Assembly (NCBI RefSeq): GCF_055900595.2
Contig: NZ_JBVWEU010000009.1
DNA length: 5,152 bases
Direction: 5' to 3' (one strand)
From: a plasmid
A program made the translations under genes and the position numbers. The notes beneath the pieces are model-generated. The model saw nothing but the letters and a program-made list of their open reading frames with translations, had not been told where the DNA came from and made no database searches. Shown in pieces: positions 1 through 5,152 of this stretch. How positions within the stretch are numbered: position 1 is the first letter of the stretch; the number at the start of each line of letters is the position of its first letter.

Positions 1-45
1 TGTGCATAATATAACCTTGTCTGCCTGCGTGTGAGACCGTAAAAT

Positions 46-110
46 CATCCCTGATTAATTCAGGGATGCGCACTTAGACGTTTCTCTCCTTCGTCGAGAA
101 ACAGTGCGCT
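46..110 (-). other. oriT: origin of transfer (oriT), RSF1010/R1162-like MOBQ nic region
   Basis: Read on the minus strand (plus 102 down to 47) the sequence is GTTTCTC-GACGAAGGA-GAGAAAC-GTC-TAAGTGCGC-ATCCCTG. That is a 7-bp inverted repeat (plus 80-86 / 96-102), 3 nt, then TAAGTGCGC (plus 68-76). This matches the nic core I recall for RSF1010 oriT (GTTTCTCGAAGAGAAACCGGTAAGTG|CGCCCT), including the 3-nt distance between repeat and TAAGTG. A second perfect 9-bp inverted repeat (46-54 catccctga / 60-68 tcagggatg, 5-nt spacer) lies just 3' of the predicted nick. Predicted nick is on the minus strand between plus coordinates 71 and 70. The site is 22 bp upstream of mobA. Confidence 0.6.
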
Positions 111-132
111 CCTGCGGAGGGCTTAACGGCAG

Positions 133-1227
133 ATGGCAAGCTACCATTGCACAGTTAAAACTGGAGCAAAAGGCGTAGCCTTAAAACATGCTGATTACAT
201 TTCCAGATCCGGCGAATATAAAAACTATAAATCGCGGGAGGATCTGGAATTTTCTTCATCCGGTAACATGCCATCATGGGCGAAGAAAAATCCCGCAGAA
301 CTGTGGAAAGCTGCTGATGAATTTGAACGAAAAAACGGGACGGCATACCGTGAAATTGAGATCGCATTACCGCGAGAACTGACACGTGAACAACGGATAG
401 AGCTTGTTGAAGATTTCGTGCAAAAGGAACTTGGTGATCGCCATGCCTATCAGTACGCGATCCACAATCCACCAGGTGCAATTGACGGGAAGGAACAGCC
501 ACACGCGCATATCATGTTTTGCGAACGGATTAATGATGGTATTGAACGCGATCCGCAGCAGTTTTTTAAACGTGCCAACAGCAAATCACCAGAGCGGGGA
601 GGCGCAAAAAAGGCACGCTTTGGCGAGACACAACAAGAGCGAAAATCAGCCCTGGTTGCGCTACGCTCTCACTGGGCTGATGTGCAGAATGAACACCTTG
701 CGCGACACGGCCACCAGTCGCGCGTTGATCATCGTTCGCTGAAAGAACAGGGTATCAAGCGTACGCCGGAGGTGCATCTTGGTCCCGTTCGTGTTGCTGT
801 TATGAACGCTGATCAGGTTTGTGCAATTCTGGCATGGAGAAATGCGGAACGGGAGAAGCTGGAGGCCGAGAAGGAACGGGACAGCATCATTGACCTTAAA
901 ACGACCTTGAAGGAAGCGTTAGCTGAACGGGATAACATGCCACCAACCCTGGATGAGCTTGGGGCAGAATTGAAAGCGTTTGTTGAAAGCTCGTTTGATG
1001 AACTCAATGAGGTAATGCAGCTTAATTCATTGATTGACGGTGCGCTGGACACAATGATGAAGCAATTCCAGGTGGAAGAGGAGCGGAAGCTGCAACAGGA
1101 ACGACTAATTCAGGCTGCGCGAGATGAAGCCGAAAAACAAAGAGAGCTGGAGAGGGAAAGAGTGCGCCGGCGTGCGTATTCTTCACCAGCACCATCACGT
1201 TCACGCGATTATGGTATGAGCCGTTAA
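133..1227 (+). CDS. mobA: mobilization relaxase MobA (MobA/MobL family, MOBQ)
   Basis: 364-aa ORF, ATG at 133 with GGAGG at 116-120. The N-terminus MASYHCTVKTGAKGVALKHADYISRSGEY has the conserved Tyr-containing motif of MobA/MobL relaxases (compare RSF1010 MobA), and a downstream His motif (QPHAHIMF) fits the metal-binding histidine cluster. The C-terminal half is charged and coiled-coil-like (EKLEAEKER, QRELERERVRRR). It sits directly downstream of the oriT-like site. G+C is near half, typical of an enterobacterial backbone. Confidence 0.88.
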   Translation: MASYHCTVKTGAKGVALKHADYISRSGEYKNYKSREDLEFSSSGNMPSWAKKNPAELWKAADEFERKNGTAYREIEIALPRELTREQRIELVEDFVQKELGDRHAYQYAIHNPPGAIDGKEQPHAHIMFCERINDGIERDPQQFFKRANSKSPERGGAKKARFGETQQERKSALVALRSHWADVQNEHLARHGHQSRVDHRSLKEQGIKRTPEVHLGPVRVAVMNADQVCAILAWRNAEREKLEAEKERDSIIDLKTTLKEALAERDNMPPTLDELGAELKAFVESSFDELNEVMQLNSLIDGALDTMMKQFQVEEERKLQQERLIQAARDEAEKQRELERERVRRRAYSSPAPSRSRDYGMSR

Positions 1228-1248
1228 GCACTGGAGGTTTTTTATTTT

Positions 1249-1965
1249 ATGCAATTGGATGAACATTCAAGAAAAATTGCTGCCCTTGTTGCGTATAATG
1301 AAAAGCAAATAAAAGAAATAAACAGGATAATTACTCTGCTTAATGAAAGAGTGAATGATTTAAATACCTTTACAGATACTCTTGAACGTGAAGGTAAAGT
1401 TGTATCTGGAATTTCTTATTCCTTGAGAGATAGTGTGTCTCATGTTGATTTTTATCTTAATAAAGGAATGGAAGAAGTATCCTGTAAATTACAGAAATCT
1501 GTCTCAGACACACTAACATCATTACTCCGTGAAAAATTATCTTTCACACTTAATGATGTAAGGCAAGAGTGGACTGATTTTGAAGAGCAAACAAGTAAAG
1601 AGATAAAGGAATCATTAAAGCAGACGACCAGAGATGCTGAAGTTGCGACAGGTATAATTAGAAAAATAATGGAAAAGTATACAGTAACAAGGATAGTCGA
1701 AAAGGTAATTGTGTTACTTGTGTTATTTTTATTACTAATGATAGCACCTGGTTTCTATGCTGAATATCTCAAAATGAATATCGGTTCTCTAATGGAAGAA
1801 CAGAAAAAACATGAATCTATGTTAAAAGAGTGGAAGGAAAAAGCACCATTGGCAGAGTTCTCTAAGTGTGGAGAGTATAGGGAAGCATGTGTGTTAGTTG
1901 ATGATAAAAGCGGATATTATTATGATGAACAAACTCCAAATAAAAAATATGCCATACTGAAATAG
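1249..1965 (+). CDS. hypothetical bitopic membrane protein (N-terminal coiled-coil domain, one transmembrane helix, small Cys-containing C-terminal domain); AT-rich cargo gene
   Basis: 238-aa ORF. ATG at 1249 is preceded by GGAGG at 1233-1237 and starts 21 nt after the mobA stop codon (TAA 1225-1227), with no obvious promoter in between. The N-terminal ~145 aa are rich in K/E with heptad-like spacing (EKQIKEINRIITLLNERVNDLN). One strongly hydrophobic segment (IVEKVIVLLVLFLLLMIAPGFYAEYL) follows, then a ~70-aa tail with two Cys (SKCGEYREAC) and a YYYDE motif. Codon usage is visibly AT-rich, about one-third G+C by eye, unlike mobA and rep. I recognise no family. Confidence 0.6.
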   Translation: MQLDEHSRKIAALVAYNEKQIKEINRIITLLNERVNDLNTFTDTLEREGKVVSGISYSLRDSVSHVDFYLNKGMEEVSCKLQKSVSDTLTSLLREKLSFTLNDVRQEWTDFEEQTSKEIKESLKQTTRDAEVATGIIRKIMEKYTVTRIVEKVIVLLVLFLLLMIAPGFYAEYLKMNIGSLMEEQKKHESMLKEWKEKAPLAEFSKCGEYREACVLVDDKSGYYYDEQTPNKKYAILK

Positions 1966-2120
1966 TGTTAAGTAACTCATTCCGCCTTATGACTAAGGCT
2001 GCATGAGTATAAAAACTAAAAATAAATGCCCGTACCTAAAAAATGGAACTACATATACTTATGTACCTTGAGAATGACGGAGTTAATTTATCCTTTGTTG
2101 TCAAATTTTTGACCCAAACA

Positions 2121-2160
2121 GGGGCCGCTTGGTAGGGTATCTGAACTCCAATCGGTCCCC
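2121..2160 (-). terminator. candidate intrinsic terminator / GC-rich imperfect hairpin downstream of the minus-strand cargo gene
   Basis: On the minus strand, just after the stop codon (complement of 2172-2174), the sequence GGGGACCGATTGG-(15 nt)-CCAAGCGGCCCC forms an imperfect ~11-bp stem (one bulge, one mismatch) followed by UGUUUGGGUC. It is a GC-rich island in an otherwise AT-rich intergenic region between two convergent genes. The T-tract is weak, so this is only a candidate. Confidence 0.3.
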
Positions 2161-2171
2161 TCATAATGCCT

Positions 2172-2969
2172 TTATGTATTGAATTCTAATACAGGGTCGA
2201 ATTGAAACATGTCATTAAAATAACATAGTGCTGGATTACTAAATGTAATTGGTTCTGCTTCGGTATTTAGGTAATCCAACCATTCATAATAATCTTTTTT
2301 AAATTGCGTGTATGTTTCTTTTGTCATTGGTTTGAATTGATAACCAAAAGTTGTATGAAATCTATATGTGTCATGGTTTTTATGTTTCACTCCTGTTATT
2401 TCAGCAACGGAATTTCTAAAGTTGATTAGTATTTCTTTATCTGAGTTGCTTGCAGGAATTAAAGGTATAATAAAGGCTGGTTGTTTATTATCGTCCCACT
2501 CTGGAGGTAGCGATGGTGTAGATTTTAGATCTACCTTCATTGTAACAGGTTTTTCAAATCCTATTTGTTTATTTTTAAGTGTATTTGCAATTAACTTTGT
2601 CGCTTCCTCCATGCTTATATTCGTGGGGGTGTTATAAGGCCAAGGATTTTTTCTATCGCCACTAATTAAAGAAATGATAGTCATGTGATAAGAGTTTGGA
2701 GGTAATAACACAATGCAATCACCAAAATCTCGTTGAATTCGAACCTGAATATTAAGCATTGCTTTAAATAAATTGCTGTCTTTATCTGTATGGCAGATTA
2801 CGGAACATCCTTTATATTGTGCAACCTTTCCATTGCGATAAAATTTTGCGCCCTTATCAAGACCGTTGTTTTGTGCTATTTCGCATCGATTATTTTCAGC
2901 AAAAACAGTATTAGATGTTATTGCTGCTGTTACTAATGCGGAAGATTTTATAAATGTTCTTCTGTCCAT
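2172..2969 (-). CDS. Tat-signal (twin-arginine) exported protein with 2H phosphoesterase (LigT-like) motifs; AT-rich cargo gene
   Basis: The minus-strand ORF track starts at 3029, but the preferred start is the ATG at 2969 (complement of 2967-2969), preceded by AAGGAA 7 nt upstream. It gives MDRRTFIKSSALVTAAITSNTVFA-ENN: a twin-arginine motif (RRxFIK), a hydrophobic h-region and an A-x-A-like cleavage site (VFA), i.e. a Tat signal peptide. The mature part carries two H-x-T-x motifs flanked by hydrophobics, about 110 aa apart: LLPPNSYHMTIISL and YRFHTTFGYQF. This is the signature of the 2H phosphoesterase superfamily, and the first motif resembles the PPENLH-hydrophobic-T-L segment I recall in LigT. 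G+C is about one-third by eye. Confidence 0.6.
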   Translation of the reverse strand: MDRRTFIKSSALVTAAITSNTVFAENNRCEIAQNNGLDKGAKFYRNGKVAQYKGCSVICHTDKDSNLFKAMLNIQVRIQRDFGDCIVLLPPNSYHMTIISLISGDRKNPWPYNTPTNISMEEATKLIANTLKNKQIGFEKPVTMKVDLKSTPSLPPEWDDNKQPAFIIPLIPASNSDKEILINFRNSVAEITGVKHKNHDTYRFHTTFGYQFKPMTKETYTQFKKDYYEWLDYLNTEAEPITFSNPALCYFNDMFQFDPVLEFNT

Positions 2970-3014
2970 AACAGATTCCTTATTAGTGAATGTGAGTTTC
3001 TTCTTCATTAGAAG

Positions 3015-3042
3015 AATGTAAAAAAACATAAATAAAAGTCAA
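3015..3042 (-). promoter_or_regulatory. candidate sigma70 promoter for the Tat/2H-like gene
   Basis: On the minus strand: TTGACT (complement of 3037-3042), a 16-nt AT-rich spacer, then TACATT (complement of 3015-3020). This lies about 45 nt upstream of the ATG at 2969. The alternative in-frame ATGs at 3029 and 3008 would fall inside or abut this promoter and lack a Shine-Dalgarno sequence. Confidence 0.3.
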
Positions 3043-3237
3043 ACGGTAAAAAACGCCTAGGGGCTTTCACGAAACAAACGGATTTGTACGCTGAACTTTG
3101 ACGTCACCCCGTTTGGGGGAAACTCATCAGAACGCTATATCAAATTCCCGCAAAGGACTTCTCATCCAGGGGAGAAAATTTGTCATTTTGACCCGTTCGC
3201 CGTTCTGTACGGTCGAAACCGATCGCGCATCGCTTTC

Positions 3238-3253
3238 GTGCATAGTTATGCAA
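3238..3253. promoter_or_regulatory. candidate ARG-box-like palindrome (accessory sequence of the cer-like site)
   Basis: gTGCATagttATGCAa is an inverted repeat (TGCAT / ATGCA, 4-bp AT-rich centre) resembling the ARG box half-sites TGAAT / ATTCA. It lies about 100-115 bp upstream of the XerC/XerD core, the distance at which ArgR binds in cer. Confidence 0.3.
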
Positions 3254-3353
3254 CGCGCTAAAAACGATTCTGACGCATTTTTTATGTTTACCCTGGTGTT
3301 TCCTTGTCTTTTTACGTTTTTTACGTCAGAAAGCGACTGAGGGCGTTTTAAGG

Positions 3354-3381
3354 GGTACGTACAAGAGGAGTTATGGTAAAT
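3354..3381 (+). other. cer-like XerC/XerD multimer resolution site (core)
   Basis: GGTACGTACAA-GAGGAG-TTATGGTAAAT. The left arm differs by one base from the ColE1 cer XerC arm as I recall it (GGTGCGTACAA), and the right arm is identical to the cer XerD arm (TTATGGTAAAT). The central region is 6 bp (cer has 8; dif and psi have 6). About 250 bp of non-coding sequence upstream (3100-3353) fits the accessory region. Confidence 0.6.
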
Positions 3382-3402
3382 GGATCGGGTTTGCGGGAAG
3401 GA

Positions 3403-3431
3403 TCGACAGGATTTGCCGTTGGGTGTAGTGT
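3403..3431 (+). promoter_or_regulatory. candidate rep promoter
   Basis: TCGACA (3403-3408), 17-bp spacer, TAGTGT (3426-3431). This would start a roughly 100-nt leader before the rep ATG at 3538, in line with the long antisense-controlled leader of ColE2-type rep mRNAs. Confidence 0.3.
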
Positions 3432-3439
3432 AAGCGACT

Positions 3440-3555
3440 GAAAAACAAACGCCCCTGAAATCATGTCCAGATCCGGCAAGATTCAACATGAAATACAGGG
3501 GCGAGGTCGGTCGATAACCTGGAAGGAATCGTAACACATGAGCGCCGCGCTTCAA
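3440..3555 (-). ncRNA. candidate antisense RNA (ColE2 RNAI-like copy-number control RNA) complementary to the rep leader
   Basis: A long interrupted hairpin in the rep leader: gcccctg (3451-3457) pairs with caggggc (3496-3502), and the inner arms tcatgt (3461-3466) pair with acatga (3486-3491). On the minus strand the stem is followed directly by GUUUGUUUUUC (complement of about 3440-3450), the shape of an intrinsic terminator for a minus-strand transcript. ColE2-type replicons are known to control Rep translation with a roughly 115-nt antisense RNA against the leader. The 5' end and promoter are not resolved, so the boundaries are approximate. Confidence 0.4.
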
Positions 3556-4473
3556 TACTTCGACGAAAATTTACCCCACCGTCCCTATCACACGGATGAT
3601 CTCGCTTTTGGTCTTCGCATCTCCGGCAAAGGGCGTGCGCTTCTTGCGCGGTACATACAGCAGAACCAGCCTCATGCGCAGTTCTGGCTGGTTTTTGACG
3701 TTGACCGCGAGGGGGCAGCGATTGACTGGAGTGACCGGAACGCTCCCGCGCCGAACATCACCGTAAAAAATCCTGTGAACGGTCATGCTCACCTGCTCTA
3801 CGCGCTCAATATCGCCGTGAGAACCGCGCCGGACAGCTCGGTTAAGGCGCTGAAATACGCCGCTGCGATTGAACGTTCGCTGTGTGAGAAACTTTGTGCT
3901 GATGTGAACTACAGCGGACTGATTTGCAAAAATCCGTTCCACCTGGAATGGCAGGTGATGGAGTGGCGCGAGGAAGCCTATACCCTCGATGAACTGGCAG
4001 ATTATCTCGATTTGAGCGCCTCAGCGCGTCGTAGCATCGATAAACATTACGGGATGGGGCGAAACTGCCACCTGTTCGAAATGACGCGCAAATGGGCTTA
4101 CAGGGCGATTCGTCAGGGCTGGCCAGCATTCTCACAGTGGCTTGATGCCGTGATTCAGCGTGTCGAAATGTACAACGCATCGCTTCCCGTTCCGCTTTCT
4201 CCGGCTGAATGTCGGGCTATTGGCAGGAGCATTGCGAAATACACGCACAGGAACTTCACGCCGGAAACTTTCGCACAGTATGTGGCTGATACGCACACAC
4301 CAGAAATACAGGCCAAGAGAGGCCGGAAAGGTGGTATCGCTAAAGGCGAAGCCTACGATGACAAGCGTTTCATGGCGCTATGTATGCTGGATAATGGATA
4401 TTCTCAGAAAGCTATTGCGGCGATGCTGAATGTACATCGTAATACGATCCGTAATTGGGCAATGCACAAATAG
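3538..4473 (+). CDS. rep: ColE2-type replication initiator Rep (plasmid-specific primase-like initiator)
   Basis: 311-aa ORF, ATG at 3538 with AAGGA at 3523-3527. The N-terminus MSAALQYFDENLPHRPYHTDDLAFGLRISGKGRALLARYIQQNQPHAQFWLVFDVDREGAAIDWSDRNAPAPNITVKNP closely matches what I recall of ColE2-P9 Rep (MSAVLQRFREKLPHKPY...QNQPHA...DWSDRN.PAPNITVKNP). The C-terminus has a helix-turn-helix-like segment (YSQKAIAAMLNVHRNTIRNW). The origin motif follows directly after the stop codon, as in ColE2. G+C is near or above half. Confidence 0.9.
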   Translation: MSAALQYFDENLPHRPYHTDDLAFGLRISGKGRALLARYIQQNQPHAQFWLVFDVDREGAAIDWSDRNAPAPNITVKNPVNGHAHLLYALNIAVRTAPDSSVKALKYAAAIERSLCEKLCADVNYSGLICKNPFHLEWQVMEWREEAYTLDELADYLDLSASARRSIDKHYGMGRNCHLFEMTRKWAYRAIRQGWPAFSQWLDAVIQRVEMYNASLPVPLSPAECRAIGRSIAKYTHRNFTPETFAQYVADTHTPEIQAKRGRKGGIAKGEAYDDKRFMALCMLDNGYSQKAIAAMLNVHRNTIRNWAMHK

Positions 4474-4515
4474 CCTATATCAGATAACAGCGCCTTTTCG
4501 GCGTCTTTTTGAGCA
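4474..4515 (+). other. ori: ColE2-type origin of replication (Rep binding and priming site)
   Basis: cctatATCAGATAACAGCGCCttttcGGCGTCTTTTTGAGCAg starts right after the rep stop codon (TAG 4471-4473). It matches the conserved ColE2/ColE3 ori core as I recall it (CCTTATCAGATAACAGCGCCCTTTTGGCGTCTTTTTGAGCA) with a few substitutions. Confidence 0.7.
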
Positions 4516-4569
4516 GCGGGCTTTCCGGCGGTTTTCTCCTTTCAGCCCAGCAATGGTGCGGCTTACCGT

Positions 4570-4640
4570 ATGATTGAGGTGGTCGTGCTCGCCGCAGTCT
4601 CATGACCGAGCGTAGCGAGCGAATGAGCGAGGAAGCACCA
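4570..4640. other. candidate single-strand initiation / primosome assembly site (ColE1 pas-like homology)
   Basis: GCTCGCCGCAGtctcatGACCGAGCGtAGCGAGcgaaTGAGCGAGGAAGC (about 4587-4636) is strikingly similar to the pBR322/ColE1 segment GCTCGCCGCAGccgaacGACCGAGCGcAGCGAGtcagTGAGCGAGGAAGC. In ColE1 this lies downstream of ori in the region of the PriA-dependent primosome assembly (n-prime) sites. Here it sits about 100 bp downstream of the ColE2-type ori, where lagging-strand priming would be needed. Confidence 0.4.
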
Positions 4641-4666
4641 GGGAACCGGAACGTGAACGGAGGCTC

Positions 4667-5113
4667 TTACGCACTGTCTTTGGTTAGTAGCTTCTTCCCG
4701 CGTCTTTCCCATTCCTGCCATTTTGGATGGTTGCGCGGTAGCTCTGCGATTCCTGCGAGTGCGCCTACCAGTTCGGCAGCACTACACTTTGGTTTTCCGG
4801 TTTTGCTGTCCACCAGTCCTGCCACAATCATGAGGCCTGCGGCCTTGTAGAGTTCATGATCCCGCGCTTTTCGTTCCGCCCTTGCGGCTGCCTTCCGTTC
4901 TGCCGCTATGATTGCCGTTACCCTGGCTTTTGCTGCGGCTGCTTTCTCTGCGGTTTTTTCTGCCCGTATCAGTGCGGATAACGTTTTTTCATCCGTCGTT
5001 GTTCGGTTTTTTTTCTCTGCCAGTAACACAAGTAATCTCTGCTGCTCTGACGGTGATTTCAGTCCGTTGATGTAGGCAATTTTTGCACTTAACCACTCTT
5101 CACGATTTGTCAT
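4667..5113 (-). CDS. mobC: MobC-like mobilization accessory protein (divergent from mobA across oriT if the molecule is circular)
   Basis: 148-aa minus-strand ORF. ATG is the complement of 5111-5113, with GAGGT 5 nt upstream. The protein is Ala/Lys/Arg/Glu-rich and helical (EKTAEKAAAAKARVTAIIAAERKAAARAERKARDHELYKAAGLMIVAGL, ELVGALAGIAELPRNHP), like the small oriT-binding accessory proteins found beside MOBQ relaxases. Its start is 39 bp from the window end; joining the end to the start puts it divergent from mobA with oriT between them, as mobC/oriT/mobA is arranged in RSF1010-type plasmids. The family call rests on position and composition, not on a recognised motif. Confidence 0.5.
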   Translation of the reverse strand: MTNREEWLSAKIAYINGLKSPSEQQRLLVLLAEKKNRTTTDEKTLSALIRAEKTAEKAAAAKARVTAIIAAERKAAARAERKARDHELYKAAGLMIVAGLVDSKTGKPKCSAAELVGALAGIAELPRNHPKWQEWERRGKKLLTKDSA

Positions 5114-5152
5114 TCTTACCTCTGCACTTTTGCCGTTAATGTGAGTTGTTAT

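What the first reader, a model, noticed from the sequence alone, without database searches (positions are those of the whole stretch)
1228..3060. AT-rich two-gene cargo island where ColE2-family plasmids normally carry a colicin operon
The backbone (mobA, rep, MobC-like gene) is about half G+C, while a sharply bounded segment of about 1.8 kb between the mobA stop codon and the cer-like accessory region is about one-third G+C. It holds exactly two convergent genes, neither of which I can assign to a colicin, immunity, lysis, toxin-antitoxin or resistance family. Both products have periplasm-facing parts (one Tat-exported, one bitopic membrane protein), which suggests they act together at the cell envelope. 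I see no flanking inverted or direct repeats or recombinase, so the island was probably acquired by recombination rather than by an intact mobile element.
Basis: partly seen in the sequence, partly recalled or inferred. Interest (0 to 1): 0.75.

Follow-up and report, generated by a model that had tools for sequence, protein, structure and literature searches.

The report
Mobilisation gene plus swapped-in periplasmic phosphodiesterase
The AT-rich stretch of this small E. coli plasmid is real, but it is two unrelated pieces rather than a gene pair: a membrane-protein gene that always travels with the plasmid's transfer enzyme, and a single cargo gene for an exported phosphodiesterase of unknown substrate that replaced an earlier cargo gene.

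Summary
G+C falls from 0.51 to 0.33 between about 1238 and 3053. The segment holds two convergent genes and has no flanking repeats or recombinase.

The reading as a co-functional two-gene cargo island does not hold.

Gene 1 (1249-1965) is an uncharacterised protein with one membrane span. In every independent lineage I recovered with enough flanking DNA, it lies directly downstream of a MobA/MobL relaxase gene, opposite a TraD-like gene. It also occurs in plasmids with no cargo or with other cargo. I therefore treat it as the third gene of the mobilisation module. Its role, transfer accessory or entry exclusion, is inferred.

Gene 2 (2172-2969, minus strand) is the only true cargo. It is a twin-arginine-signal member of Pfam PF08975 (DUF1868, 2H phosphodiesterase). 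Both HxT motifs are intact and its fold matches PDB 2FSQ. A decayed 3' end of a LysE-family gene at about 2003-2104 shows that gene 2 replaced the LysE cargo of sibling plasmids.

The two genes co-occur only in copies of this plasmid. Relatives of gene 2 sit in sugar-type uptake loci, which suggests periplasmic scavenging of a phosphodiester.

This is modest novelty.

The parts
1249..1965 (+). Gene 1. It encodes a 238-aa bitopic membrane protein: a cytoplasmic coiled-coil of about 150 aa, a transmembrane segment at residues 153-171, and a tail of about 65 aa with two conserved Cys (207, 214). It is the third gene of the TraD-like/oriT/MobA mobilisation module and is not cargo.
   Evidence: ORF. 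A GGAGG sequence at 1233-1237 lies 11 nt before the ATG, and there is no terminator after mobA. Homologues at 46% to about 21% identity always lie directly after a MobA_MobL gene, with gaps of +25 to -13 nt. The conserved tail motif is W-x-KAP-x-A-x4-CG-x5-C-V-L-V-D. dN/dS is 0.15-0.18. There is no Pfam, NCBIfam, PDB or AFDB relative beyond coiled-coil noise.
2003..2104 (-). Decayed, frameshifted remnant of the last 30 or so codons of the LysE-family translocator gene that sibling plasmids carry intact. It marks the left junction of the cargo replacement.
   Evidence: Homology to pSCU-106-7 runs through window 1-2104 and stops there. The translated remnant contains DKLTPSFSRYISICSSIF, identical to the LysE C-terminus, followed by a 4-nt deletion and a stop.
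2105..3171 (.). The segment actually swapped relative to sibling plasmids: the cargo cassette carrying gene 2 with its own promoter region. The flanks have no match in PLSDB.
   Evidence: Blastn against pSCU-106-7, the 5716-bp LysE plasmids and the cargo-less plasmids shows that all resume homology at window 3172. Only the ORF (2179-2987) matches the IncF DUF1868 gene, at 76%.
2172..2969 (-). Gene 2. It encodes a 265-aa precursor of a Tat-exported 2H phosphodiesterase (Pfam PF08975/DUF1868). The signal peptide is MDRRTFIKSSALVTAAITSNTVFA, and the catalytic motifs are H95-M-T97 and H205-T-T207.
   Evidence: Pfam 2H-phosphodiest E = 1.4e-20 and TAT_signal E = 0.0022. PDB 2fsq E = 1.5e-13 by sequence. 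The AF2 model scores about 90 pLDDT over the mature part. Foldseek puts 2fsq first (E = 2.8e-15, TM 0.71/0.80), then LigT, Usb1, CPDase and AKAP18. H95, T97 and H205 are invariant. dN/dS is 0.16 against the IncF homologue.
3015..3042 (-). Candidate sigma-70 promoter of gene 2 (TTGACT-16-TACATT).
   Evidence: Consensus scan. This is only a pattern match, and the number of such sites in the region is no higher than in shuffled sequence.
3172..3381 (+). cer-like multimer-resolution site: about 180 bp of accessory sequence followed by the XerC/XerD-like core GGTACGTACAA-GAGGAG-TTATGGTAAAT (3354-3381). Its outer edge is the fixed right boundary of the cargo slot.
   Evidence: The core was found once in the window and never in 200 shuffles. 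The same core occurs in ColE9-J and in sibling plasmids. Window 3158-4313 is 92% identical to ColE9-J. PMC6856555 states that ColE2-type plasmids carry a cer-like site. The arm consensus is recalled from ColE1 cer.
133..1227 (+). mobA, encoding a 364-aa MobA/MobL (MOBQ) relaxase. It is the upstream partner of gene 1.
   Evidence: NCBIfam MobQ E = 3.9e-29 and TraA_Ti E = 2.2e-28. It is only 32% identical to the MOBQ4 relaxase domain of pSE11-6.
4667..5113 (-). TraD-like relaxase accessory gene (148 aa), divergent from mobA. oriT is expected between the two genes, across the window junction.
   Evidence: Annotated as 'conjugal transfer protein TraD' in sibling plasmids. PF06412 is recorded on the homologous genes.

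Best explanation
The low-G+C segment is a composite of two independent modules on a complete 5.15-kb plasmid. The plasmid has a ColE2-type (Col156) replicon and is mobilisable.

(1) Gene 1 belongs to the mobilisation operon, in the order TraD-like gene, oriT, mobA, gene 1. It is probably co-transcribed with mobA and has its own ribosome-binding site. It makes an inner-membrane protein with a cytoplasmic coiled-coil and a small, probably disulfide-bonded, periplasmic tail. I infer that it serves transfer. It may tether the relaxosome to the membrane or to the helper's secretion machinery, or it may act as an entry-exclusion determinant. The linkage to mobA is shown; the activity is inferred.

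(2) Gene 2 is the plasmid's only cargo. It sits in the variable slot between the mob operon and the outer edge of the cer site, which is where ColE2/ColE9 plasmids carry their colicin operon. It entered by recombination and replaced most of a LysE-family (plus methyltransferase-like) cargo, leaving the LysE 3' end behind. It encodes a 2H-family phosphodiesterase that is folded in the cytoplasm, exported by the Tat pathway and released into the periplasm after cleavage at VFA/EN. There its two HxT motifs should hydrolyse a cyclic phosphate or phosphodiester.

The gene neighbourhoods of relatives point to a role. Cytoplasmic family members lie next to sugar-type ABC importers with ROK/LacI regulators. 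Tat-type members lie next to TonB-dependent receptors with MFS or ABC transporters. The most likely role is therefore scavenging of a sugar-like phosphodiester or cyclic-phosphate nutrient. The family, fold, signal and replacement history are shown. The export route, the substrate and the benefit are inferred.
For: Composite structure. Homology to sibling plasmids covers window 1-2104 and 3172-5152, so only 2105-3171 differs. A LysE remnant lies at the junction.

Gene 1 and the mob module:
- phmmer against 1.84 billion representative proteins finds five lineages.
- A scan of 100,044 species genomes adds seven divergent loci (Cedecea, Shimwellia, Providencia, Photorhabdus, two Proteus, one MAG contig) and one near-identical copy, L044, which is a mobA deletion.
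- Wherever flanking DNA exists, the order is a TraD-like gene, then MobA_MobL, then gene 1, with gaps of -13 to +25 nt.
- Cargo-less 4.55-kb plasmids keep a gene 1 homologue.
- Purifying selection acts on it, with dN/dS 0.15-0.18.

Gene 2:
- Pfam PF08975, E = 1.4e-20, plus a TAT_signal hit.
- PDB 2fsq by sequence and by fold.
- Invariant catalytic His/Thr residues.
- About 85 of 121 family members retrieved carry RR-type signal peptides.
- Uptake-locus contexts.

No co-occurrence of the two genes outside this plasmid.
Against: - No experiment or annotated homologue supports any activity for gene 1.
- Its AF2 model is of low confidence (pLDDT 62).
- Most ColE2-type plasmids, and the experimentally mobilised MOBQ4 plasmids, transfer with only a relaxase and one accessory protein (PMC6856555), so a third gene is not generally needed.
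- One contig (L044) has lost mobA but keeps gene 1 intact. This could mean gene 1 has a function independent of transfer.
- On this plasmid and on IncF plasmids gene 2 stands alone, without the receptor or transporter genes seen next to its distant relatives (at most 33% identity). Transfer of function from those contexts is therefore weak.
- E. coli already has periplasmic CpdB and GlpQ.
- The Dickeya homologue is solitary.
- No member of PF08975 has a known substrate. Literature searches for DUF1868, PF08975 and Atu0111 returned nothing functional.
Confidence: 0.7

Rival explanations
1. One reading: genes 1 and 2 form one acquired two-gene envelope system, in which a membrane anchor or partner works with a periplasmic enzyme. 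The plasmid uses it in place of a colicin operon.
For: Both genes are equally AT-rich (0.326 and 0.328). They are adjacent and convergent, and both face the periplasm. The pair is stable in at least 14 sequencing runs. Against the cargo-less plasmids, homology is lost from window 1317 to 3171, so the gene 1 body and the cargo region differ as one block.
Against: Gene 1 occurs with LysE cargo in 33 PLSDB records, with no cargo, and with ParE or other genes. It is always tied to mobA. Gene 2's closest homologues occur without gene 1. The 72% E. coli IncF homologue appears in 435 index blocks, and there is a 54% Salmonella homologue. Co-occurrence is found only in copies of this plasmid. The LysE remnant between the two genes shows they arrived at different times. 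Gene 1 homologues are AT-rich everywhere, whatever their cargo.
Confidence: 0.05
2. Gene 1 is specifically an entry-exclusion (surface-exclusion-like) determinant of the mobilisable plasmid. It would sit in the recipient's inner membrane with its conserved periplasmic tail blocking entry of related plasmids. This is a sub-hypothesis of the best explanation and competes with the 'relaxosome docking' role.
For: - The architecture is a small inner-membrane protein encoded at the end of a transfer operon.
- The periplasmic tail is the best-conserved part.
- Gene 1 is the fastest-diverging gene of the module: 46% identity, against 86% for MobA and 97% for TraD and Rep, in P0138-type plasmids. It is still under purifying selection.
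- A mobA-deleted derivative keeps it intact.
- There is precedent from established knowledge, recalled from memory: ColE1 carries exclusion functions (exc/mbeD) in its mob region.
Against: Gene 1 has no sequence or profile similarity to any known exclusion family (TraS, TraT, TrbK, Eex, MbeD_MobD); no such Pfam hit appears even at E <= 10. A plasmid that relies on several helper secretion systems has no obvious single target to exclude. The steep divergence can equally be explained by allele replacement through recombination, since DNA homology breaks at codon 23.
Confidence: 0.25
3. Gene 2 does not scavenge a nutrient. Instead it removes a periplasmic signal or toxic molecule. Examples would be 2',3'-cyclic nucleotides made by periplasmic RNase I, or a competitor's phosphodiester-containing toxin. 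It would then act as a protective or behaviour-modifying trait, analogous to immunity in the colicin slot.
For: On this plasmid and on IncF plasmids the gene is solitary, with no transporter partner. On the IncF plasmids it lies among maintenance and competition genes: the microcin B17 operon, pemIK, and a GmrSD-like gene. 2H enzymes classically act on 2',3'-cyclic or 1'',2''-cyclic phosphates, as do the fold neighbours LigT and CPDase.
Against: No member of the family has been tied to such a role. Distant relatives are embedded in uptake and catabolic loci. Proximity to the microcin operon is several genes away and is probably incidental. There is no PADLOC or PHROG hit.
Confidence: 0.2
4. 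Gene 1 is an abortive-infection or other anti-phage membrane effector carried as cargo.
For: A weak PADLOC hit to AbiZ (E = 1.5e-4, residues 18-129). The gene is retained in a mob-deleted derivative.
Against: The hit covers only the coiled-coil. It is not reproduced in homologues, which instead give scattered coiled-coil hits to JetC, Leo and ZorA, or nothing at all. Strict synteny with relaxase genes is not expected for a defence gene.
Confidence: 0.04

Closest known systems
Pfam PF08975 (DUF1868, '2H-phosphodiest'); solved member Atu0111 of Agrobacterium tumefaciens (PDB 2FSQ)
   Same: Gene 2 matches the family HMM (E = 1.4e-20). It aligns to 2FSQ over residues 40-263, has the same fold (Foldseek E = 2.8e-15, TM 0.71/0.80) and conserves both HxT/S motifs.
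   Different: It is only about 24% identical to Atu0111. It carries a twin-arginine signal, which Atu0111-type cytoplasmic members lack, and a 9-residue insertion shared only with the enterobacterial plasmid clade. No member of the family has a known substrate.
LigT/ThpR, plant CPDase, Usb1 and AKAP18 (classical 2H phosphoesterases)
   Same: Same superfamily fold and the same two-histidine catalytic arrangement.
   Different: Sequence identity is 8-16%. These enzymes are cytoplasmic or nuclear and act on RNA ends, 2',3'-cNMPs or Appr>p. Gene 2 is predicted to be periplasmic.
E. coli periplasmic phosphodiesterases CpdB and GlpQ (functional analogues; named from established knowledge, not tested here)
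   Same: They are periplasmic enzymes that convert phosphodiesters or cyclic phosphates into transportable products. This is the role proposed for gene 2.
   Different: Their folds are unrelated (metallophosphoesterase/5'-nucleotidase and GDPD), and they are chromosomal and Sec-exported.
ColE2/ColE9-type colicin plasmids (Col156 replicon; MOBQ42 of Garcillan-Barcia et al. 2019, PMC6856555)
   Same: The Rep, ori and cer-like regions are shared (92% identity over window 3158-4313). The cargo slot abuts the same outer edge of cer.
   Different: The window has no colicin, immunity or lysis genes. Its mobilisation module is different: a 364-aa MobA that is 32% identical to the MOBQ4 relaxase domain, a 148-aa TraD-like protein in place of MobC, and gene 1.
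Col156 MOBQ plasmids with LysE cargo, such as pSCU-106-7 (NZ_CP053241) and pSTEC2018_607-j (NZ_CP075707)
   Same: The backbone is 92-97% identical, and gene 1 is 90-97% identical at the protein level.
   Different: Their cargo is a LysE-family translocator, with or without a 316-aa methyltransferase-like protein. In the window that cargo is reduced to a 100-nt remnant and replaced by the DUF1868 gene.
Small membrane-associated accessory or exclusion proteins of mobilisable plasmids: R1162/RSF1010 MobB and ColE1 MbeD/Exc (named from memory)
   Same: Like gene 1, they are small proteins encoded within or next to the relaxase operon of a mobilisable plasmid and act at the membrane.
   Different: There is no detectable sequence or profile similarity. 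The architecture also differs, since gene 1 has a long coiled-coil, one transmembrane segment and a Cys-containing tail. This is an analogy only.

Membership tests
2H phosphoesterase superfamily / Pfam PF08975 (gene 2) | Significant match to the family profile | tested here: met
   PF08975 i-E = 1.4e-20, residues 62-167. The precomputed PF08975 assignment is present on all close homologues.
2H phosphoesterase superfamily / Pfam PF08975 (gene 2) | Two H-x-T/S-x catalytic motifs | tested here: met
   H95-M-T97 and H205-T-T207. H95, T97 and H205 are invariant in a 7-sequence alignment that spans 22-72% identity.
2H phosphoesterase superfamily / Pfam PF08975 (gene 2) | Bilobed alpha+beta 2H fold | tested here: met
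   The AF2 model has pLDDT of about 90 over the mature part. Foldseek puts 2fsq first, followed by LigT, Usb1, CPDase and AKAP18, all with probability 1.00.
2H phosphoesterase superfamily / Pfam PF08975 (gene 2) | Phosphodiesterase activity on a cyclic phosphate or phosphodiester | not testable with these tools
   This needs an enzyme assay. No substrate is known for any PF08975 member.
Tat (twin-arginine) exported proteins (gene 2) | S/T-R-R-x-F-L-K-type motif, followed by a moderately hydrophobic h-region and an A-x-A-like cleavage site | tested here: met
   The sequence is MDRRTFIKSSALVTAAITSNTVFA|EN. Pfam TAT_signal E = 0.0022. The motif is conserved in the 72% and 54% homologues. There is no lipobox Cys.
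Tat (twin-arginine) exported proteins (gene 2) | Export depends on TatABC | not testable with these tools
   This needs fractionation in wild-type and tatC strains.
Colicin operon (colicin, immunity, lysis) | Homology of the island genes to colicin, immunity or lysis proteins | tested here: not met
   No such hits were found in Pfam, NCBIfam, PHROGs or PADLOC. The ColE9-J colicin region has no match in the window.
Mobile genomic island or transposon | Flanking direct or inverted repeats, or a recombinase/transposase gene | tested here: not met
   Only short chance-level repeats were found, and none brackets the segment. The window has no recombinase ORF.
Co-functional two-gene system (genes 1 and 2) | Homologues of the two genes co-occur in independent replicons | tested here: not met
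   Of 51 fetched loci, 24 carry the gene 1 family and 29 carry DUF1868. Both are present only in L003-L006, which are 99.9-100% identical copies of the window.
Mobilisation (Dtr) module of MOBQ plasmids (gene 1) | Conserved synteny and orientation with the relaxase gene across divergent lineages | tested here: met
   The order is a TraD-like gene, then MobA_MobL, then gene 1, in all lineages with enough flanking DNA. MobA is down to about 53% identical to the nearest reference among the divergent loci. The only exception is L044, a mobA-deletion derivative.
Mobilisation (Dtr) module of MOBQ plasmids (gene 1) | Contribution to transfer frequency or to exclusion | not testable with these tools
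   This needs mating assays with and without gene 1.
Known entry-exclusion or mob accessory families (TraS, TraT, TrbK, Eex, MbeD_MobD, MobB/MobC) (gene 1) | Sequence or profile similarity | tested here: not met
   No such family appears among Pfam hits at E <= 10, either for gene 1 or for five homologues scanned individually. There is no NCBIfam hit. A PDB profile search returns only coiled-coil noise. AFDB50 returns only the protein itself.
AbiZ abortive-infection protein (gene 1) | Reproducible profile match across family members | tested here: not met
   There is a single weak hit (E = 1.5e-4) in the coiled-coil region, and it is absent from four homologues.

The most novel reading that the evidence does not exclude
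Gene 1 may found an undescribed family of relaxase-linked inner-membrane proteins that is restricted to small MOBQ (TraD-like/MobA) plasmids of Enterobacterales. Its conserved, disulfide-bonded periplasmic tail would contact the helper plasmid's secretion apparatus. It would act either as a plasmid-specific entry-exclusion factor or as a membrane dock that lets a small plasmid hijack several conjugative systems. Separately, the enterobacterial plasmid clade of Tat-exported DUF1868 enzymes could act on a substrate not previously assigned to 2H enzymes, such as a sugar or polyol cyclic phosphate in the periplasm. That would give plasmid carriers a gut-niche advantage.
Probability: 0.3. Interest if true: 0.6.

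Novelty: new member of a known kind. Interest (0 to 1): 0.33.

Why it matters
Small Col-type plasmids are very common in E. coli, Shigella and Salmonella, and most are called 'cryptic'. This case has three consequences.

- ColE2-type replicons are not limited to colicin cargo. The slot between the mob operon and cer is a general exchange point, and here a datable replacement can be read directly from a gene remnant.
- A hypothetical gene that is usually counted as cargo is actually a conserved third component of one MOBQ mobilisation module. That gives plasmid biologists a specific new gene to test for transfer or exclusion.
- DUF1868 is a family with a crystal structure but no known function. 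It has a large Tat-exported branch, associated with uptake loci, that has moved onto enterobacterial plasmids. This narrows the search for its substrate.

None of this overturns current understanding. It mainly corrects an over-interpretation and supplies two testable leads.

Tried and rejected
- Colicin, immunity, lysis, toxin-antitoxin or resistance identity for either gene: no hits.
- AbiZ or other defence role for gene 1: the single weak PADLOC hit is coiled-coil noise and is not reproduced in homologues.
- Structure-based identification of gene 1: the AF2 model is of low confidence (pLDDT 62, pTM 0.24). AFDB50 Foldseek returned only the protein itself, and a PDB profile search returned keratin, haemagglutinin and vinculin coiled-coils.
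- Gene 1 as a split-off C-terminal domain of a longer MOBQ4 relaxase: no similarity to the 719-aa pSE11-6 MobQ.
- The backbone as MOBQ4/MOBQ42 as described in PMC6856555: only the replicon and cer are shared with ColE9-J. MobA is 32% identical to the MOBQ4 relaxase domain.
- Mobile-element acquisition: no bracketing repeats.
- Literature on DUF1868, PF08975 and Atu0111: nothing functional. One CNPase paper merely cites 2FSQ as a structural neighbour.
- 'Col156 + LysE' literature search: the hits use 'lyse' as a verb.
- Rfam: only sub-threshold hits.
- One look-up (P0050, Dickeya) was not on record, and two DNA search patterns were rejected for syntax.

Full report
**Observation**

The window is a complete circular plasmid of 5152 bp. 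Its last and first bases are contiguous in the related plasmid pSCU-106-7.

G+C in 200-nt windows is 0.29-0.375 from about 1201 to 3100, and 0.46-0.575 elsewhere. A maximum-likelihood two-boundary segmentation puts the edges at 1238 and 3053, with 0.329 inside and 0.508 outside.

The segment holds two convergent long ORFs: 1249-1965 (+) and 2172-3029 (-). No repeats bracket it, and the window encodes no recombinase.

**What the backbone is**

- Rep (3538-4473) is a ColE2-type initiator.
- Window 3158-4313 and 4474-4636 are 92% and 81% identical to ColE9-J.
- A XerC/XerD-like core, GGTACGTACAA-GAGGAG-TTATGGTAAAT, lies at 3354-3381 and is shared with ColE9-J.
- The mobilisation genes are not those of the MOBQ4 colicin plasmids described by Garcillan-Barcia et al. 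(PMC6856555).
- MobA here is 364 aa and only 32% identical to the MOBQ4 relaxase domain.
- The accessory gene encodes a 148-aa TraD-like protein (PF06412), not MobC.
- In ColE9-J the colicin operon ends just before the same cer boundary.

**Gene 1 is not cargo**

The protein has 238 aa: a cytoplasmic coiled-coil of about 150 aa, one transmembrane segment at residues 153-171, and a 65-aa tail with Cys207 and Cys214.

It has no Pfam, NCBIfam, PHROG, PDB or AFDB relative beyond coiled-coil noise. A weak AbiZ hit is not reproduced in homologues.

An exhaustive phmmer search against 1.84 billion representative proteins found only five lineages: the window type, P0138 at 46% identity, and P0142, P0143 and P0146 at 25-32%. 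A pattern scan of 100,044 species genomes added seven divergent loci, from Cedecea, Shimwellia, Providencia, Photorhabdus, two Proteus and a MAG contig, plus one near-identical copy, L044, which is the mobA-deletion case described below.

In every case with enough flanking DNA, the gene lies directly downstream of a MobA_MobL relaxase gene on the same strand. The gap ranges from +25 to -13 nt. A TraD-like gene lies divergently upstream.

What follows gene 1 varies:
- nothing, in the 4.55-kb P0138-type plasmids;
- a LysE-family translocator, with or without a 316-aa methyltransferase-like protein, in 33 PLSDB records;
- a ParE toxin;
- large unrelated ORFs in Providencia.

In the window a GGAGG sequence sits 11 nt before the ATG, and no terminator follows mobA. 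Close alleles differ with dN/dS 0.15-0.18, so the gene is under purifying selection. The best-conserved parts are an N-terminal KKIAAL motif and the tail motif W-x-KAP-x-A-x4-CG-x5-C-V-L-V-D...KKY-x-I.

Gene 1 homologues are AT-rich (0.32-0.38) whatever the G+C of their mobA partner. The low G+C at 1249-1965 is therefore a property of this gene family and not evidence of recent co-acquisition with gene 2.

I conclude that gene 1 is the third gene of this mobilisation module. The linkage is shown. Its activity, membrane docking of the relaxosome or entry exclusion, is inferred.

Two observations lean towards an exclusion-like or otherwise fast-evolving interaction role:
- Gene 1 is by far the most diverged gene of the module. 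It is 46% identical in P0138-type plasmids, where MobA is 86% and TraD and Rep are 97% identical. DNA homology breaks at codon 23.
- One mobA-deleted derivative keeps it intact.

**Gene 2 is the cargo, and it replaced an earlier one**

Compared with pSCU-106-7, the 5716-bp LysE plasmids and the cargo-less plasmids, homology always resumes at window 3172. That point is 183 bp upstream of the Xer core, at the outer edge of the cer accessory region.

On the left, homology to the LysE plasmids runs through gene 1 and on to 2104. Window 2003-2104 is the decayed 3' end of the LysE gene. The peptide DKLTPSFSRYISICSSIF is identical, and a 4-nt deletion then shifts the frame.

The swapped segment is therefore 2105-3171. 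Exact copies of the resulting plasmid occur in at least 14 public sequencing runs. It is absent from PLSDB and from complete RefSeq E. coli genomes.

**What gene 2 encodes**

From the start at 2969 the product is 265 aa. The evidence:
- It matches Pfam PF08975 ('2H-phosphodiest', DUF1868) at E = 1.4e-20, and the TAT_signal model at E = 0.0022.
- It aligns to the structural-genomics protein Atu0111 (PDB 2FSQ) at E = 1.5e-13.
- Its AlphaFold model has pLDDT of about 90 over the mature domain.
- Foldseek finds 2FSQ first (E = 2.8e-15, TM 0.71/0.80), then LigT, Usb1, plant CPDase and AKAP18.
- Both catalytic HxT/S motifs are present, and H95, T97 and H205 are invariant across the family sample.
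- The N-terminus, MDRRTFIKSSALVTAAITSNTVFA|EN, is a textbook twin-arginine signal with no lipobox.

The closest relatives are a 72%-identical protein that is widespread on E. coli IncF plasmids and a 54%-identical Salmonella protein. The IncF gene always lies between rop and stbB-parM, near a microcin B17 operon. Both relatives carry the same signal and are equally AT-rich in their contexts. All other relatives are at most 33% identical. dN/dS against the IncF gene is 0.16.

**Likely role of gene 2**

No member of PF08975 has a known substrate. Gene context gives the only functional lead.

- Four of four cytoplasmic members examined lie beside or within transporter loci. In Kosakonia, Deinococcus and Rhizobium these are complete sugar-type ABC importer loci with ROK or LacI regulators, once with a glycerophosphodiesterase. 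In Vibrio only an ABC ATPase and a LuxR-family regulator are adjacent.
- About 85 of 121 retrieved family members have RR-type signal peptides.
- Three of four chromosomal Tat-type members examined lie next to a TonB-dependent receptor with an MFS or ABC transporter and a ROK or LacI regulator. These are Novosphingobium, Pseudomonas gingeri and Sphingomonas. The Dickeya gene is solitary.

The most economical reading is a periplasmic step in the uptake of a sugar-like phosphodiester or cyclic phosphate. On this plasmid the enzyme stands alone, so this transfer of function is weak. A role in removing a periplasmic signal or toxin, for example 2',3'-cNMPs, remains open.

**Do the two genes work together?**

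Among all 51 loci fetched, 24 carry the gene 1 family and 29 carry DUF1868. Both occur together only in L003-L006, which are copies of this plasmid. The LysE remnant between them shows that they arrived at different times.

**Verdict**

- The composition anomaly and the gene inventory are real.
- The 'two-gene envelope island' is not supported.
- The segment is a mobilisation-module gene of an undescribed family, plus a single recombined cargo gene from a known but uncharacterised enzyme family, sitting in the general cargo slot next to cer.
- Novelty is modest: a new member or arrangement of known kinds.
- It leaves two concrete experimental leads: gene 1 in transfer or exclusion, and the substrate of the Tat-exported DUF1868 enzyme.

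Noticed in passing
window 2003-2104 (minus strand): A decayed, frameshifted remnant of the last 30 or so codons of a LysE-family translocator gene. It is identical in peptide (DKLTPSFSRYISICSSIF) to the intact gene of sibling plasmids. It dates the cargo replacement and marks its left junction.
   Followed up: yes
window 4337-4449 (Rep C-terminus, just upstream of ori): This is the only backbone stretch with no match to pSCU-106-7. Rep is 97% identical to the P0138-type plasmids but only 69% to the 5716-bp LysE plasmids, whereas MobA shows the opposite pattern (86% against 97.5%). The replicon and mob modules are therefore reshuffled independently among these plasmids.
   Followed up: partly
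window 1249-1317 versus 1318-1965: DNA homology to the cargo-less P0138-type plasmids stops abruptly at codon 23 of gene 1. The rest of the protein is only about 43% identical, while TraD and Rep are 97% identical. This is either an intragenic recombination breakpoint or very fast divergence of this one gene.
   Followed up: partly
L044 (3507-bp contig binned in a 'Bacteroidetes' MAG): A derivative of the LysE-type plasmid in which the 3' part of traD, oriT and nearly all of mobA are deleted, while gene 1 (97% identity) and LysE remain intact. It is probably an Enterobacterales plasmid that was mis-binned. It hints that gene 1 may be kept for reasons other than transfer.
   Followed up: partly
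L030 3635-5164 (sibling plasmid pSTEC2018_607-j): The alternative cargo in the same slot is a two-gene operon. It encodes a 316-aa protein with weak SAM-methyltransferase or spermine-synthase-like Pfam hits (E about 2e-3) followed by a LysE-family exporter. This may be a system for modifying and exporting a small molecule, and it is uncharacterised.
   Followed up: partly
window 3449-3571 (+): A sub-threshold Rfam match to PK-repBA (33.9 bits, gathering score 45, E = 9e-5) lies over the rep leader and start codon. This is the region where ColE2-type plasmids are regulated by antisense RNAI, according to PMC6856555.
   Followed up: no
L011 (Salmonella contig, 9.3 kb): The 54%-identical Tat-type DUF1868 gene lies near genes for a histidine acid phosphatase (His_Phos_2), a porin, a PTS EIICB component and a transketolase fragment. 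This is compatible with a locus for phosphoester or sugar scavenging.
   Followed up: no
L036-L043 (E. coli IncF plasmids): The 72%-identical DUF1868 gene sits at a fixed place between rop and stbB-parM, close to pemIK, a GmrSD-like gene and the microcin B17 operon. It is AT-rich there as well (0.327 against 0.459), so it is foreign DNA in both plasmid types.
   Followed up: partly
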